A DNA stretch of 64,000 bases from the human T2T-CHM13v2.0 reference genome, Homo sapiens (GCF_009914755.1 NC_060925.1), one strand, 5' to 3'; shown: positions 9,500 through 33,923, counted from the first letter of the stretch. Numbers and translations are program-made. Notes: generated by a model from the letters alone, not told the origin.

Positions 9500-10980
9500 A
9501 TTTGGTTTCTTAGCAGAGCTCGCCTCACCCTTTCCGCCCCCGCCCTTCCCCCCAGTCCCCGAGTCCCCAGCCTCCCTCCTCAGGACTCCGCCAAGGCTGC
9601 AGGAAGTGGTCACCCAGGAACAGCCCGAGGGGTGGCCTCTGCCTTCCTGGCGTCAGGAGAGTCGGACGCTTGGCCCTTTCCCAGCCCGGCCTCGTATAGG
9701 GTCCGAGGAGCCCATAGCTGCACTCCTAGTTAGGTGGGAGGTCGGACTCCGCCGACAAATCCCAAAGAGAGGGGTGGGGAAGAAGGAGATACCAGCCCTG
9801 AAAGCGAAAAGCCGGAGAGGAAAGTCCTGAAAAGCCGCCAGGAATTCCCAAGGAGCGCAGGGCTGGAATGGAGGCGCTGCCCGGACCCTCTCCTCCCACC
9901 CAATCCCGCGTCGTCACCCCCTGCTTGGGGTCGGGGGCTCTGGGGTCTGCGTAGGCTGGGAGCCGTTCCGGAACCGGACACCTGGCGCGCACGTCCCGGG
10001 AAAGGCGGAGGGTGCATTGCCCCTCCTCACGCCCCCTGTCCCCTGTACCTGCGGCGGCGGCGTGTCTGGCGGGACCCAGCAGCGCGGGGCGTGTTCCGAC
10101 CACTTAAAAGTTACAAAGTGAAACTCCGGCGCCTCCTGCACATGCGCAGAGCTGCGGCCACCCCTTTCCCAATTTGGAGTCTTGGCCCGCGGCGGCGCAA
10201 GCCTGTACGCAGCTGACTGCGCCTCCCGCGGTGGCCCTCGGCGGTCCTCTGCCCCGGCCTGGCCTCCTGGTCGCCGCTCAGCCCCGCAGCTCCTCCCGGA
10301 GGTCTGCAAGCCCCGGACCGGCCAGCTCACGTCCAGGCTCCAAGAAGGGATCCGCCGGGGCGCACCCTCTTCCGTCCCCCGGCACGAGCCCAGTCTCTGG
10401 ACGCCTCCGGGAGAACTGGGCCAAGCACAGGGTGGTCGCGGCGCAGGGAGAGCATCTGCAAACGTTGGTCCCTGTAGTGCTTTGAATTTCCCCGAAGAGC
10501 TCTTAGACCCGCCCCGGGAGAGTGGGGTTGCGGGGGTGGTAGCATGGGGAGCTCAGCAGGATTCAGCCCGCACCTCGGCTCCGGGTAGTCGGGAACCGCG
10601 CGGAGCGCCCTGCAAGAGGCCACGGCTCCCCCGCCGCTGTAGAAGGCCGGACCGTGAAAGCCCGGAGGGTCTCCGTTCGGGCAAAAATGTGGGGGCGGGT
10701 CGCAGCATTTCCAACGCCCCCTGGGGTTAGTCCATTACTGCTCGAGCCAGGGCCGCCAAGGGCACCTACTCCAGCCCAGGTCCGAGAGCGCGGCATGCCT
10801 CCCGGCCGGGAGCCAAATGTTTCCAGGGAGCCGGTGGCCTCCACAACCGGACCGCAAGCTCGCGAGGGCAGGGCCGGCCCGCCGCGCCAGGGACTGCTGG
10901 GCGCTGCGCGGGAAGCGAGGCTGGGTTCGGGGAGGACCGCGCGCCCTGGGAATCAAGGAGCAAACCAACCCGTCCGCAGG
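9500..10980. promoter_or_regulatory. CpG island / TMEM63A promoter
   Basis: High GC and dense CpG, GC boxes, NRF1-like motif at 10137-10148. Confidence 0.85.
10049..10130 (-). other. TMEM63A: Predicted TMEM63A non-coding exon 1 (5' end approximate)
   Basis: Donor CAG|gtacag at 10048 inside the CpG island; NRF1-like TGCACATGCGCA just upstream at 10137-10148. Confidence 0.55.
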
Positions 10981-11935
10981 CCCCTGTTTCCCTATCTGTG
11001 AAATGAGTGGTTGGACCAAAGCTTCCTCTCAGGTCCCTTCCAGCACCCCTCTCTGAGCTCTGAGCAGTCCTCACCCCACATGCATGCCTTTGCAGGTTCT
11101 CCGACCTCCCTTCCATTTCTGAGCTTTCATCTTTTTCTGTAACGGCATAAAAATATCCTCCTTATGGCCGGGCGCGGTGGCTCATGCCTGTAATACCAGC
11201 ACTTTGGGAGGCCGAGGTGGGCGGATCACCTTAGGTCTGGAGTTCGAGACCAGCCTGACCCGCATGGAGAAACCCCGTCTCTACTAAAAATACAAAATTA
11301 GCCGGGTGTGGTGGCACATGCCTGTAATCCCAGCTACTAGGGAGTCTGAGGCAGGAGAATCGCTTGAACCTGGGAGGCGGAGGTTGCGGTGAGCTGAGAT
11401 TTCACCATTGAACTCCAGCCTGGGCAACAAGAGCGAAACTCTGTCTCAAAAAAAAAAAAAAAAAAAAAAAAAAAAATTCCTCCTTACCTCCCTGTCCCTG
11501 ATTCTAGCGCCAGTCTGTGGCTGTCCAGGAGTGGGGTGGGGAGGGTCTCTTCCTGCCTCTCTCAGTTCTTTTCTGTCCCATCTGTCTTTCCCCTTCTCTC
11601 CCCAAAGCTCTAGCCACTAGTTATTTTCCAGGGTTTTTCCTCTATGCCCCCCCCCAGTATCATCTCTGCCCTTGTCCCTCCATAGCTGCGCCTGGCCATC
11701 CCCCCTCCCTGCTCTCTTACCTCCACATCTGACGGTCTGCAGAGTCCTGGGTGTGGCCCCTGGACTCCCCGTTGGCTCCTTAGACTGTCCCTGTCCAATC
11801 TTTCTTCCACTCCCCACTCCCGCACCTGCCTGTCCTCCTTCCTTCCTCAATGAATGGTGCCCCCACCTGTCTGGTCTGTGCCATGGGTCCAGGCAAGTGC
11901 AAGGTTCCGGTCTTGGTAATTAGAATGCTGGAGCC
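10973..11935 (+). repeat. Inverted duplication arm A (contains an Alu insertion)
   Basis: Reverse complement of 33265-33923; e.g. GGTTGGACCAAAGCTTCCTCTCAGGTCCCTTCCAGCAC and CCTTACCTCCCTGTCCCTGATTCTAGCGCCAGTCTGTGGCTGTCCAGG are shared. Confidence 0.93.
11166..11476 (+). mobile_element. AluSp-like insertion in arm A
   Basis: CATGGAGAAACCCC and GGCAACAAGAGCGAAACT diagnostics; TSD about AAAAT(A)TCCTCCTTA. Confidence 0.93.
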
Positions 11936-12095
11936 ACTGACAAAGATTTCAGAGAGAGAAAGGATTTCTAAATTTGTTCTTGAGTAGGTTAAGGTTATTT
12001 CAAAATCAAGAGAAGGCCTTGATGGATCGATATGTGAGTTGAGATAGCCACAGCCTTTGTTATGTCAGTTGTGTGAAGTGCTTGTAAAATCACTA

Positions 12096-31369: not shown

Positions 31370-31960
31370 ACCTCCAGTGACTTCTTATTACACGTTGGAT
31401 AAAATTCAAATTTCTTCCCATGTCCTTAAAGCCCAGCTGACCTGGGCCAGGTTTGCCTGCTCCACCTCAGGTCCTACCTCTCCTCCTCTCCTCACTTGCT
31501 CCCTGAGAACAATGCACACAGGCCTCTTTACTCTCCCCAAACGTGACATGCCAGTTGCACCTCAGGGCCTTTGCACAAGCTGTTCTCTCTACTTGCAAGG
31601 GTCTGTGCCCAGATCTTTGCGTGTTAACTTGTTCTTATCATTCAGGATCGGATGTCACCTCCTCAGAAAGGCCTCTCTTATCCATGCATACATATCTACA
31701 TGTTCCTTCCTGCCTCTACCAATTACTATCTCTCTTTATCATTCTGGTTTATCTTCCTCATAGTACTTAGTACTATCTAAGATTTTCTTCTCCACCTCTT
31801 TAACCATCTATTGACTGCCTCCCCGCTGGAGCGTTGCTTCCAGGAGCTCAGAAAATTTGTCTAACCTGTTTCCTGCTATGTCCCTGTGCCTAGAACAATG
31901 ACCAGCACAATGAGGTATCATGGTAGACACTTCATCAATATTTGTCGAATGAATTAAAAG
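31370..31960 (+). mobile_element. L2 3' end (upstream pieces probably at 27630-27760 and 28460-28640)
   Basis: CTCAGGGCCTTTGCACA...TGTCACCTCCTCAGAAAGGCCT...AATATTTGTCGAATGAAT. Confidence 0.7.
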
Positions 31961-33264
31961 ATGGGCATTCTCACTGTGCAAGCTTGGTGAACTCTGGATT
32001 TCAATTCTTTTGTAAAATGAGGTAGATAGACGAGATGATTCCTTTCAGCTCTAAATCACTAGGAGAGAGAAAAGGGGTGCTTGGGACTTCTCTCTGGATT
32101 AACCCCCATTGGTGCTAAATGCTGCCAGGCCTCTGCCAAGGAAGGTCTCCCAGGACTGAGAAGGGTAATCAGTTTCCCAACCAGAAGTCAGCTGTCCAGA
32201 GCCCTCTGAGCCCCAGGCCCATGCCTGCAGGCCGGATTGTTTCTCAGTCAGCAATCCTTGGTGTGGACTGGGAAGTTTCTGTGCCATCCAAGGCTCAGCT
32301 CTGGCAAGGAACAGGATTCAGAGTCCACACAGAACACCAGTTAGTTCTCCCCTCTTGGGCTGACCAGCATCTGCCGGCTGTGTCTTAATAAGAAGTGGGC
32401 TCCACTCCATCTCCTTCTCTGGAAATAAGCTATTATTTATTTATTTATTTATTTATTTATTTATTTATTTATTCATTCATTTATTTAGAGATGGAGTCTT
32501 GCTCTGTTGCCCAGGCTGGAGTGCAGTGGTGCAATCTGGGCTCACTGCAACATCCGCCTCCTGTGTTCAAGGGATTCTCCTGCCTCAGCCTCCCGAGTAC
32601 CTGGGACTACAAGCGCCCACCACCATGCCCAGCTAATTTTTGTATTTTTAGTAGAGACGGGGTTTCACCATGTTGGCCAAGCTGGTCTTGAACTCCTGGC
32701 CTCAAGTGATCCACCCGCCTCAGCCCTGTAAAGTGCTAGGATTACAGGCGTGAGCCACCGCGCCTGGCTAGCTTTTAAGGGTTGGTTTCCCTAGACCCAG
32801 GGTGGAGGGCTCTGGCCACCCAGGAATTCCCAGAGCATCTTCTGACAGGAAGGCACCTAGTGCATTGTTCATGGACCTTCCTGTGAGGGGGCAGCACCAG
32901 TGGCCTGTCCTCCTCAGCCCAGTGACAGCAGGTCCTTGCTGAAACCAGCCCATGCTTCCAGCTCCAGGGAGCTCCCAGCGAGTCCAGATGTTGGGAGGTT
33001 GGGGAGGAGCACAGCTTGCAGTGTCAGACCAGGGAGACCCCTGGGGTGGAGTCTGGAGACCTGGATTTGGCAGGGCTTTGTCACCGACTCATAACCAAGA
33101 CATTCTGCACCTTGGGTCTGAGGAACAGAGATCCTACAATTTCAAAAACAGTAAATGTCTCCAACCTTTCAGAGCAAGAAAGCTGCACAGTGTAACTGAG
33201 AAGGGAGGTGGATCAAGCTATTTGGGGGAAGCTAGGAAGAGGGTCCTTCCTCGCCCTGAGTCAA

Positions 33265-33923
33265 GGCCCATCCTTCTGGTCCCAGGGCCAGACCTTGCAC
33301 TTGCCTGGACCCATGGCATAGATCAGGCAGGGTGGAGGGGGCACCATTCATTGAGGCAGGGAAGGGAGGACAGGCAGGTGCGGGAGTGGGGAGTGGAAAG
33401 AAGATTGGACAGGGACAGTCTGAAGAACTGATGGGAAGCCCAGGGGCCACATCCAGGACTCTGCAGAAGGTCAGATGTGGGGTCTTTGGCAGGAGGTAAG
33501 AGAGCAGGGAGAGTAGATGGCCAGGCACAGCTACAGAGGTACAAGAGCAGAGATGATACTGAGGGGAGCACAGAGGAAAAACTCTGGGAAATAACTAGTG
33601 GCTAGAGGTTTGGGGAGAGAAGGGGAAAGCCAGAGGGGACAGAAAAGAACTGAGAGAGGCAGGAAGAGACCCTCCCCACCCCACCCCTGGACAGCCACAG
33701 ACTGGCGCTAGAATCAGGGACAGGGAGGTAAGGAGGATATTTTTATGCCGTTACAGAAAAAGATGAAAGCTCAGAAATGGAAGAGAGGTCGGAAAATTTG
33801 CAAAGCCACGCATGTGGGGTGAGGACTGCTCAGAGATCAGAGAGGCTTGGTGCTGGAAGGGACCTGAGAGGAAGCTTTGGTCCAACCGCTCATTTTAAAG
33901 AGAGAGAAACTGGGGCCTGCGGA
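33265..33923 (-). repeat. Inverted duplication arm A'
   Basis: Reverse complement of arm A; ORF track shows MEGRSENLQRHACGVRTAQ (-) versus MEERSENLQSHACGVRTAQ (+). Confidence 0.93.

What the first reader, a model, noticed from the sequence alone, without database searches (positions are those of the whole stretch)
10973..33923. Nested inverted duplications around LEFTY1: a degenerate ~23 kb palindrome whose right arm lacks the gene
Seen: two independent non-transposon segments each have an inverted copy, in mirror order A(10973-11935) - LEFTY1 - B(17890-19830) | B'(26388-27382) - 5.9 kb - A'(33265-33923). Both pairs give a symmetry axis near 22.5 kb, and the A-B gap (about 6 kb, holding LEFTY1) matches the B'-A' gap (about 5.9 kb, no LEFTY exon visible). 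Inference: a head-to-head duplication of a LEFTY unit whose right gene body was lost or moved, leaving the flanks; alternatively, scars of staggered-break inversions. Caveat: the B'-A' gap holds an ancient L2, so any gene loss must be very old. Established: mammalian LEFTY paralogues show concerted evolution, and a LEFTY pseudogene is known near this locus.
Basis: partly seen in the sequence, partly recalled or inferred. Interest (0 to 1): 0.8.

Follow-up and report, generated by a model that had tools for sequence, protein, structure and literature searches.

The report
Gene-less mirror copy beside LEFTY1
Next to human LEFTY1 lies an old, mirror-image copy of the LEFTY gene's surroundings that has lost the gene itself but kept a signal-responsive switch, which appears to be the already known distant enhancer of LEFTY1.

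Summary
A (10973-11964) and B (17877-18968, plus 19757-19824) each have one inverted partner (A' 33244-33923; B' 26396-27393), in nested mirror order. Identity is 85-92% in the main blocks, and each tested block has only these two places in the whole genome.

The right arm is more than two flanks. It is collinear with the LEFTY upstream region, including blocks shared with LEFTY2's upstream but not LEFTY1's, and then jumps straight to the 3' flank. About 5.4 kb, holding promoter and gene, is missing near 33086-33243. No LEFTY exon remains there or elsewhere, apart from LEFTY2 and LEFTY3P.

Divergence is mosaic: about 10% in A and the B core, but 37-46% in neighbouring collinear blocks. Old repeats and older Alus also sit inside the arm. 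The arm is therefore an ancient third LEFTY unit and not a recent copy.

B and B' each carry a mirror pair of exact FoxH1 core sites, at -1.0/-1.2 kb and -10.4/-10.5 kb from the LEFTY1 start. This matches the published proximal (PE) and distal (DE) enhancers of Lefty1, reported as conserved between mouse and human.

The equal gap lengths are coincidental. Arm-to-arm gene conversion is inferred, not shown.

The parts
10973..11964 (.). A: 3' flank of LEFTY1 and outer end of the left arm. It is interrupted by an Alu-type insertion at 11161-11476 that A' lacks.
   Evidence: Searches give K2P 0.073 for 10973-11160 and 0.130 for 11477-11964. Searches find two places genome-wide. One search shows the target-site duplication.
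14031..16895 (-). LEFTY1 gene, the only gene body in the palindrome.
   Evidence: Coordinates come from the hub annotation. In one search the spliced coding parts translate to 366 aa plus stop. In one search the gene is 87-92% identical to LEFTY2 over 14455-17066.
17351..17558 (.). Proximal upstream block of LEFTY1, homologous to both the right arm and LEFTY2 upstream at ancient divergence.
   Evidence: 64% to 32217-32024; 70% to LEFTY2 upstream; three-way counts 23/41/33.
17877..18198 (.). ASE-type block with two exact FoxH1 cores (17898-17905, 18105-18112) at -1.0/-1.2 kb. Read as the proximal enhancer PE. It holds a LEFTY1-specific 134-base insertion between the two sites.
   Evidence: The PE description is from PMC5686177.
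18199..18379 (.). B-mid: collinear with 27205-27014 but only 54% identical.
   Evidence: In one search the residual similarity is in the mirror orientation only (z 5.4 against 0.1).
18380..18870 (.). B core: 491 bases, 90% identical to 27013-26523 without any gap. It has no counterpart at LEFTY2.
18912..19824 (.). Distal end of the left arm. Two short matching pieces (18912-18968 at 80%, 19757-19824 at 73%) flank 790 bases absent from the right arm, which include an Alu at 19239-19549.
19825..26395 (.). Spacer: mostly Alu-type and other repeats, with no further mirror homology.
26396..27013 (.). B' distal pieces and B core'.
27206..27469 (.). Mirror ASE-type block with two exact FoxH1 cores (27292-27299, 27366-27373, minus strand) at -10.4/-10.5 kb from the LEFTY1 start. 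Read as the distal enhancer DE. 27394-27469 is alignable to LEFTY2 upstream but not to LEFTY1.
   Evidence: The DE description is from PMC5686177.
27470..32023 (.). 4.6 kb present only in the right arm; LEFTY1 and LEFTY2 have about 0.3 kb here. It holds Alus (27764-28458, 29008-29328, 29439-30097, 30871-31187), two older interspersed repeats (28679-29007; 30098-30870 plus 31188-31370) and about 1.3 kb of nearly unique DNA.
32024..32305 (.). Relic of the proximal LEFTY upstream region, in mirror orientation.
   Evidence: One search finds it unique in the genome.
32891..33085 (.). Relic shared with LEFTY2 upstream (window-continued 72566-72352, about 3.4 kb upstream of the LEFTY2 start) and absent from LEFTY1.
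   Evidence: (85% over 59 bases), (z 12.8 against 100 shuffles; unique in the genome).
33086..33243 (.). Junction where promoter, gene and proximal 3' flank are missing. It has no detectable homology to either LEFTY unit.
   Evidence: z 0.9 against the LEFTY1 unit; no exon.
33244..33923 (.). A': mirror copy of the LEFTY1 3' flank and outer end of the right arm.

Best explanation
The right arm (26396-33923) is the remnant of a third LEFTY unit that lay head-to-head with LEFTY1. It was formed by an ancient inverted duplication of a contiguous stretch running from the 3' flank through the gene to the upstream region.

The promoter and gene body of that unit were later deleted, with the junction near 33086-33243. 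Its FoxH1-dependent ASE-type enhancer survived, and is what the literature calls the distal enhancer (DE, about -10 kb) of Lefty1. DE and the proximal enhancer (PE, inside B) would then be mirror-image paralogues, and both are paralogues of the LEFTY2 upstream ASE.

Repeats later inserted into the arm. Most neutral sequence drifted to 54-64% identity. Two stretches stayed or became about 90% alike: A/A' and the B core. The most likely cause is arm-to-arm gene conversion that stopped at about the same divergence as the last LEFTY1-LEFTY2 intron conversion.

Shown here: the inverted collinear homology, the two-copy status, the absence of exons, the mosaic divergence and the FoxH1 site pairs.
Inferred: that a gene once sat there, the equation of B' with DE (by position and motif, not by alignment to mouse), the antiquity of the arm, and conversion as the cause of the 90% blocks.
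For: 1. Collinearity. 11 of 11 HSPs of the masked right arm against the two LEFTY units are inverted. 10 of them fall in one mirror order: 19824 down to 17351, then the LEFTY2-like upstream blocks, then 11964 down to 10973. The eleventh is a 54-base match at E 0.67 and lies out of order.

2. Low copy number. A left, A right and the B core each have 2 of 2 places genome-wide. 32024-32430 and 32777-33291 have 1 of 1 each.

3. Mosaic divergence. K2P is 0.07-0.16 in A, the ASE block and the B core. It is 0.78 in B-mid and 0.54 in the proximal block. B-mid keeps residual similarity only in the mirror orientation.

4. The right arm is not a copy of present-day LEFTY1.
- In the proximal block the three-way site counts are L1=R 23, L1=L2 41 and R=L2 33, over 210 columns.
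- In the ASE core the counts are 10/7/7.
- 27394-27469 and 32891-33085 match LEFTY2 upstream but not LEFTY1.

5. Elements inside the arm that look older than the A/B similarity.
- The repeat at 30098-31370 has over 7,000 candidate copies at 74-79% identity to it.
- Alus at 27771, 29019 and 32460 lie 11.1, 15.7 and 9.2% (non-CpG) from a local Alu consensus.
- The A and B blocks have diverged by only about 3-5.5% per lineage.

6. FoxH1 sites. The exact core is TGTGGATT/AATCCACA, as printed in the Fig. 4 legend of PMC9634164. It occurs 6 times in the window, and 4 of these are the two mirror pairs in B and B'. LEFTY2 upstream has the matching pair.

7. Published enhancers. PMC5686177 (passages read) places two Foxh1 sites at about -1.5 kb (PE) and two at about -10 kb (DE) of Lefty1. 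It describes them as conserved between mouse and human, bound by FOXH1 in human ES cells, and each required for a distinct phase of Lefty1 expression.

8. Timing. LEFTY1-LEFTY2 introns differ by 7.4% (54 of 726) and exons by 1.0% (5 of 487). This is the same range as A/A' and the B core.
Against: - No mouse or other mammalian sequence could be aligned here. Equating B' with DE rests on position, motif pairs and a paper's statement. The antiquity of A' and the B core' is not directly shown.
- The four high-identity blocks have mutually compatible distances (0.07-0.16). A single younger event would also give this.
- The B core has 49 substitutions and no indel, with identity peaking in its centre. 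This could mean purifying selection instead of conversion.
- The three-way counts in the proximal block do not differ significantly from a star (my chi-square is about 5 on 2 df). They show only that the right arm is not nearer to LEFTY1; they do not give an order of events.
- Alu ages were measured against a local majority consensus. This overstates the age of subfamilies that differ from it.
- Conversions to millions of years rest on recalled substitution rates.
Confidence: 0.7

Rival explanations
1. A young inverted duplication of the LEFTY1 unit, of primate age at roughly 10% pairwise divergence. The copied gene was then deleted and the arm rearranged. Nothing in the arm predates that event.
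For: A left, A right, the ASE block and the B core have similar K2P values of 0.073, 0.130, 0.155 and 0.108. The Alu that interrupts A but not A' is of comparable age, at 5.7% non-CpG from the local consensus. LEFTY1-LEFTY2 introns (7.4%) and LEFTY3P-LEFTY2 (7%) show that the locus was being reshuffled at about that divergence.
Against: - B-mid (54% identity) and the proximal block (63%) lie between or beside the 90% blocks.
- The right arm shares 27394-27469 and 32891-33085 with LEFTY2 upstream and not with LEFTY1.
- Older repeats and older Alus lie between collinear blocks of the arm, while the LEFTY1 and LEFTY2 counterparts are uninterrupted.
- The -10 kb Foxh1 pair is reported as conserved between mouse and human (PMC5686177).
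Confidence: 0.15
2. The arm is ancient, as in the best explanation, but A/A' and the B core are about 90% alike because both copies are under purifying selection as regulatory elements. Gene conversion plays no part.
For: The B core has no gap event in 491 columns despite 49 substitutions, and its centre is 92-98% identical. The hub annotation lists RefSeq enhancer features over 17764-19199 and 10994-11043. The adjacent ASE blocks are evidently conserved in all three units.
Against: - A right has 7 gap events and 33 gap columns in 474 aligned columns, which looks neutral.
- The B core and A have no counterpart at LEFTY2.
- CpG observed/expected is 0.04 in the B core.
- The divergence matches that of converted LEFTY1/LEFTY2 introns. 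Selection would not predict this.
Confidence: 0.2
3. Two unrelated small inverted duplications, or the scars of inversions with staggered breaks. No gene ever lay between B' and A'.
For: Only A and B are conspicuous, and the interior of the right arm shows no LEFTY exon.
Against: - The order is nested (A B B' A'), not the interleaved order that a single staggered-break inversion leaves (recalled model).
- Additional upstream relics lie between B' and A' in the right order and orientation.
- All pairs share one axis.
Confidence: 0.04
4. A and B are interspersed repeats, or the matches arose by chance.
For: The window is rich in Alus: 55 copies of at least 240 bases in 84 kb.
Against: E-values range from 6e-73 down to 0. 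There are exactly two places genome-wide for each of the three blocks tested.
Confidence: 0.01

Closest known systems
Lefty1 proximal (PE) and distal (DE) Foxh1-dependent enhancers (Takaoka et al., Nat Commun 2017, PMC5686177; passages read)
   Same: Two Foxh1 sites lie near -1.5 kb and two near -10 kb of Lefty1, reported as conserved between mouse and human. The window has exact FoxH1 cores at -1.0/-1.2 kb and -10.4/-10.5 kb, and nowhere else between 10 and 35 kb.
   Different: The paper does not describe the two enhancers as related. The words duplicat-, inverted, homolog- and paralog- each occur 0 times in it. Here they are mirror-image paralogues inside a larger inverted unit that also includes a copy of the gene's 3' flank.
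Concerted evolution of eutherian Lefty1/Lefty2, and the head-to-head Lefty pair of monotremes (Dev Dyn 2024, PMC12344233; section 3.2 and passages read)
   Same: Gene conversion acts between LEFTY units in one cluster. A head-to-head arrangement of two Lefty genes exists in monotremes.
   Different: That paper treats eutherians as having two head-to-tail units. It has 0 occurrences of inverted, pseudogene or palindrom-. Here a third, inverted, gene-less unit lies between LEFTY1 and PYCR2.
Sex-chromosome and autosomal palindromes with arm-to-arm gene conversion (recalled general knowledge; no paper read here)
   Same: Inverted arms around a spacer, with homogenised stretches.
   Different: The arms here are short and degenerate. 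The high-identity blocks are 0.2-0.7 kb at 85-92%, and one arm has lost its gene. Classical palindromes have long arms at over 99% identity.
LEFTY3P pseudogene
   Same: A LEFTY-derived fragment near the locus, on the plus strand like the lost gene would have been.
   Different: It is a 950-base unprocessed piece (intron 3 plus most of exon 4), 93% identical to LEFTY2 and 83% to LEFTY1, lying 69 kb left of the window. Its flanks show no link to the right arm, apart from a shared interspersed repeat family.

Membership tests
Inverted low-copy duplication (palindrome) | Two arms in opposite orientation with several collinear blocks about one axis | tested here: met
   10 collinear inverted HSPs. 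Axes run 22.45-22.71 kb, and 23.1 kb for the outermost B piece.
Inverted low-copy duplication (palindrome) | Arms are low-copy, not interspersed repeats | tested here: met
   2 of 2 places genome-wide for each of three blocks.
Segmental duplication by the usual catalogue threshold (at least 1 kb at 90% or more; recalled) | A continuous alignment of at least 1 kb at 90% identity or more | tested here: not met
   The longest 90% block is 491 bases. A is 188 plus 428-488 bases at 88-93%.
Palindrome with arm-to-arm gene conversion | Paralogues within a species more alike than orthologues between species | not testable with these tools
   No other mammalian genome is held. There is indirect support only: mosaic identity and the match to LEFTY1/LEFTY2 intron divergence.
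Staggered-break inversion scars | Inverted duplicates in interleaved order a b' ... a' b at the ends of an inverted segment (recalled model) | tested here: not met
   The order is nested, A B B' A'.
FoxH1-dependent ASE-type enhancer | A pair of FoxH1 core sites (AATCCACA/TGTGGATT) close together upstream of a Lefty gene | tested here: met
   pairs at 17898/18105, 27292/27366 and 73522/73606. The motif is as printed in PMC9634164.
FoxH1-dependent ASE-type enhancer | FOXH1/SMAD2 occupancy and Nodal-dependent activity | not testable with these tools
   Reported for the -1.5 and -10 kb regions in PMC5686177. Not checked against these coordinates.
Lefty1 distal enhancer DE | Sequence orthology of 27206-27393 to the mouse -10 kb element | tested here: inconclusive
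   Position and motif pair fit, but no mouse sequence was available.
LEFTY pseudogene in the right arm | Recognisable LEFTY exon or intron remnants | tested here: not met
   (tblastn, best E 6.1 inside an Alu). (no DNA match to 14031-17066). (genome-wide only LEFTY2 and LEFTY3P).
Interspersed repeat | Many dispersed copies | tested here: not met
   for A and B. In contrast, parts of the arm interior have thousands of candidate copies.

The most novel reading that the evidence does not exclude
The gene-less right arm is the eutherian remnant of the same head-to-head Lefty partner that monotremes still carry as a gene. On this reading the mammalian ancestor had a head-to-head pair. Therians added the tandem LEFTY2 unit with PYCR2 and then lost the head-to-head gene, but kept its FoxH1 enhancer as the distal enhancer that starts Lefty1 expression in the pre-implantation epiblast. 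Arm-to-arm conversion has kept parts of the fossil arm recognisable for over 100 million years.
Probability: 0.25. Interest if true: 0.75.

Novelty: new member of a known kind. Interest (0 to 1): 0.55.

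Why it matters
LEFTY1 is a key brake on Nodal signalling in the early embryo and in human pluripotent cells. Its two Foxh1-dependent enhancers have separate, tested roles in mouse.

If the distal enhancer is the surviving enhancer of a lost, mirror-image LEFTY gene, this would do three things:
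- It would explain where that enhancer came from: duplication, gene loss, then capture by the neighbouring paralogue.
- It would add a third unit to the unresolved history of the mammalian Lefty cluster, which is head-to-head in monotremes, single in marsupials and tandem in eutherians.
- It would predict that inverted homology within 10 kb of LEFTY1 can mediate conversion or inversion at this locus.

All of this can be tested directly with existing mammalian assemblies.

Tried and rejected
- LEFTY3P as the 'moved' gene: rejected. It is 93% identical to LEFTY2 against 83% to LEFTY1. It carries intron 3, so it is unprocessed. Its flanks share only an interspersed repeat family with the arm interior.
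- Micro-inversion as the cause of the unalignable B-mid: rejected. The z score is 0.1 in the flipped orientation against 5.4 in the expected one.
- Coding potential of the gap-free B core: rejected. There are stops in all six frames of both copies. Codons differing non-synonymously outnumber synonymous ones in every frame. Differences by position mod 3 are 15/12/22.
- Structured RNA: 0 Rfam matches at gathering score in 10500-34500.
- Further mirror homology in the spacer: none beyond the arm ends. There is only a weak 121-base self-complementary stretch at 22445-22565.
- Homology of the junction 33086-33243 to the LEFTY1 gene, UTR or 3' flank: none (z 0.9).
The repeat at 30098-31370 has copies at 74-79% identity to it, which seems too similar for a very old family. 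The label is unverified.
- Saijoh et al. 1999 (PMC316429) is not held. Takaoka 2006 and Yashiro 2000 were not available. The supplementary figures of PMC5686177 could not be read, including Fig. 2i with the human ChIP tracks. These may show or state more about DE and PE than I could see.
- Literature searches found no description of the inverted unit: LEFTY1 + LEFTY2 + gene conversion, LEFTY3P, Lefty1 + distal/proximal enhancer + Foxh1, Lefty1 + inverted duplication, Lefty1 + palindrom- (listing only; 10 of 38 shown), and Lefty + head-to-head + Foxh1.

Full report
**1. The observation**

I masked every stretch with three or more self-matches, which covered 48 intervals and 17,605 bases, nearly all Alu-type elements. 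The only strong low-copy self-matches left in the region are these, all inverted:
- 10973-11160 with 33923-33733 (91.6%)
- 11478-11905 with 33737-33292 (87.5%)
- 17877-17961 with 27393-27311 (84.7%)
- 18094-18198 with 27310-27206 (86.7%)
- 18380-18870 with 27013-26523 (90.0%)
- 18912-18968 with 26517-26459 (79.7%)

A more sensitive run adds 19757-19824 with 26463-26396 (73%) and extends A to 11964 with 33244. All pairs share an axis at 22.45-22.71 kb, except the outermost B piece at 23.1 kb.

The 316-base gap in A is an Alu-type insertion with a target-site duplication, and A' is the unoccupied site.

The whole T2T genome turned out to be searchable. The B core, A right and A left each have exactly two places in it, namely these.

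**2. What lies between B' and A'**

tblastn with the LEFTY1 protein finds only the LEFTY1 exons. Genome-wide, LEFTY1 DNA finds only LEFTY2 and LEFTY3P.

I fetched the next 20 kb, which holds LEFTY2 and its upstream region, and the LEFTY3P region. Comparing all three showed the following.

- LEFTY1 and LEFTY2 are 87-92% identical from about 20 bases past the stop codon to 171 bases upstream of the transcription start. Further upstream they match only at 70-83%, over 17294-18198 against 72911-73696 in coordinates continued past the window end.
- The right arm carries weak, correctly oriented and correctly ordered matches to that same upstream region:
  - 27172-27469 to LEFTY2-upstream 73733-73422
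  - 32024-32217 to LEFTY1 17558-17351
  - 32061-32305 to LEFTY2-upstream 73130-72858
  - 32891-33085 to LEFTY2-upstream 72566-72352 (z 12.8 against 100 shuffles)
- These pieces are unique in the genome.

Read from left to right, the right arm therefore runs: distal upstream, ASE block, proximal upstream, then directly the mirror copy of the LEFTY1 3' flank. The stretch equivalent to LEFTY1 17351 down to 11964 is missing. That is 5.4 kb holding promoter, gene and proximal 3' flank. A 158-base junction at 33086-33243 matches nothing.

A and the upstream region lie on opposite sides of the gene. A contiguous duplication that contains both must have contained the gene. This step is an inference.

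**3. Age**

The arm is a mosaic.
- K2P distances are 0.073, 0.130, 0.155 and 0.108 for A left, A right, the ASE block and the B core.
- The 180 bases between the ASE block and the B core are only 54% identical, and the proximal block only 63%.
- The 54% stretch still shows residual similarity in the mirror orientation only.

The arm is not closer to LEFTY1 than LEFTY2 is.
- In the proximal block it gives three-way counts of L1=R 23, L1=L2 41 and R=L2 33.
- The ASE core gives 10/7/7.
- In two places the arm aligns to LEFTY2 upstream where LEFTY1 has nothing comparable.

The arm also holds 4.6 kb (27470-32023) where both LEFTY1 and LEFTY2 have about 0.3 kb. That insert contains:
- an interspersed repeat with over 7,000 candidate copies at 74-79% identity to it;
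- a second repeat family with about 2,700 candidates;
- Alus that lie 9-16% (non-CpG) from a local Alu consensus, against about 3-5.5% per lineage for the A and B blocks.

A recent one-step copy of the LEFTY1 unit does not explain these facts. An old third unit does.

**4. The enhancer link**

The block shared by all three units holds two exact FoxH1 cores. The motif TGTGGATT/AATCCACA is as printed in the Fig. 4 legend of PMC9634164. The window has six such cores, and four of them are the mirror pairs 17898/18105 (plus strand) and 27292/27366 (minus strand). LEFTY2 upstream has the matching pair at 73522/73606.

Relative to the LEFTY1 start at 16895, the pairs sit at -1.0/-1.2 kb and -10.4/-10.5 kb.

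Takaoka et al. (PMC5686177, passages read) report the following:
- Two Foxh1-binding sequences lie near -1.5 kb and two near -10 kb of Lefty1, conserved between mouse and human.
- FOXH1 is bound at both regions in human ES cells.
- The regions are named PE and DE.
- The DE sites are needed for expression in epiblast progenitors at E3.5, and the PE sites for expression in primitive endoderm at E4.5.

On position and motif content, B contains PE and B' contains DE. I could not align mouse sequence, so this equation is inferred. If it is right, the arm predates the human-mouse split, which fits section 3.

That paper never calls the two enhancers related. Six literature searches found no description of an inverted LEFTY unit. 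Key older papers and the supplementary figures were not readable here.

**5. Why A and the B core are still about 90% alike**

LEFTY1 and LEFTY2 introns differ by 7.4% and their exons by 1.0%. LEFTY3P differs from LEFTY2 by 7%. Concerted evolution of Lefty1/2 by gene conversion is in print (PMC12344233).

The A and B-core distances fall in the same range. A right has ordinary numbers of indels. CpG is depleted in all blocks.

I therefore favour arm-to-arm conversion that ceased at about the time conversion between LEFTY1 and LEFTY2 introns ceased. That is near the age of the many Alu insertions that now break up and separate the arms. This step is inferred.

The gap-free B core, with identity peaking in its centre, leaves purifying selection as a live alternative. 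It is neither coding nor a known RNA family.

**6. Comparison and verdict**

The structure behaves like a small degenerate palindrome. It falls below the usual segmental-duplication threshold. It is not a LEFTY pseudogene, because no exon is left. Its order is nested, so it is not a staggered-break inversion scar.

The equal gap lengths are a coincidence of unrelated contents. 'Moved' finds no support.

PMC12344233 notes that monotremes have their two Lefty genes head-to-head. Whether the human arm is the remnant of that partner is the boldest reading the evidence allows. It can be tested directly with existing assemblies.

The kind of event is known: inverted duplication, gene loss, enhancer retention and conversion. 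This instance, and the paralogy of DE and PE, appear undescribed in the literature I could search.

Noticed in passing
L009:4502-5451 (chr1 about 69 kb left of the window): LEFTY3P is longer than its 310-base annotation. About 950 bases match LEFTY2 intron 3 plus most of exon 4 at 93% (83% to LEFTY1), on the plus strand. It is an unprocessed fragment ending at residue 349 of 366.
   Followed up: partly
L007:5664-5926 and L007:7141-7402 (window-continued 69664-69926 and 71141-71402): LEFTY2 has its own 263-base inverted repeat pair (89% identical), 0.7-2.4 kb upstream of its start. It lies inside a 3.7 kb stretch that LEFTY1 lacks.
   Followed up: no
window 14455-17066 against L007 1198-5175: The LEFTY1/LEFTY2 high-identity tract starts about 20 bases past the stop codon and ends 171 bases upstream of the LEFTY1 start. 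The two 3' UTRs are unrelated. Exons differ by 1.0% and introns by 7.4%.
   Followed up: partly
window 17962-18096: A 134-base AT-rich insertion, specific to LEFTY1, separates the two FoxH1 sites of the proximal enhancer. The spacing is 207 bases, against 74 in the right arm and 84 at LEFTY2.
   Followed up: no
window 22445-22565: A weak 121-base self-complementary stretch (66%) is centred at 22505, close to the symmetry axis of the arms. It sits in repeat-like AT-rich DNA and may be coincidence.
   Followed up: no
window 30246-30669 and 45246-45748: A second, inverted copy of the old interspersed repeat found in the right arm lies near PYCR2, at 74-78% identity. It is unrelated to the palindrome.
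   Followed up: partly
L008:4361-4539 and L008:6520-6698 (window-continued 78361-78539 and 80520-80698): A 179-base direct repeat at 98% identity, 2.2 kb apart, lies upstream of LEFTY2.
   Followed up: no
window 36905-36912 and 59839-59846: Two further exact FoxH1 cores lie outside the palindrome. They are single, not paired.
   Followed up: no
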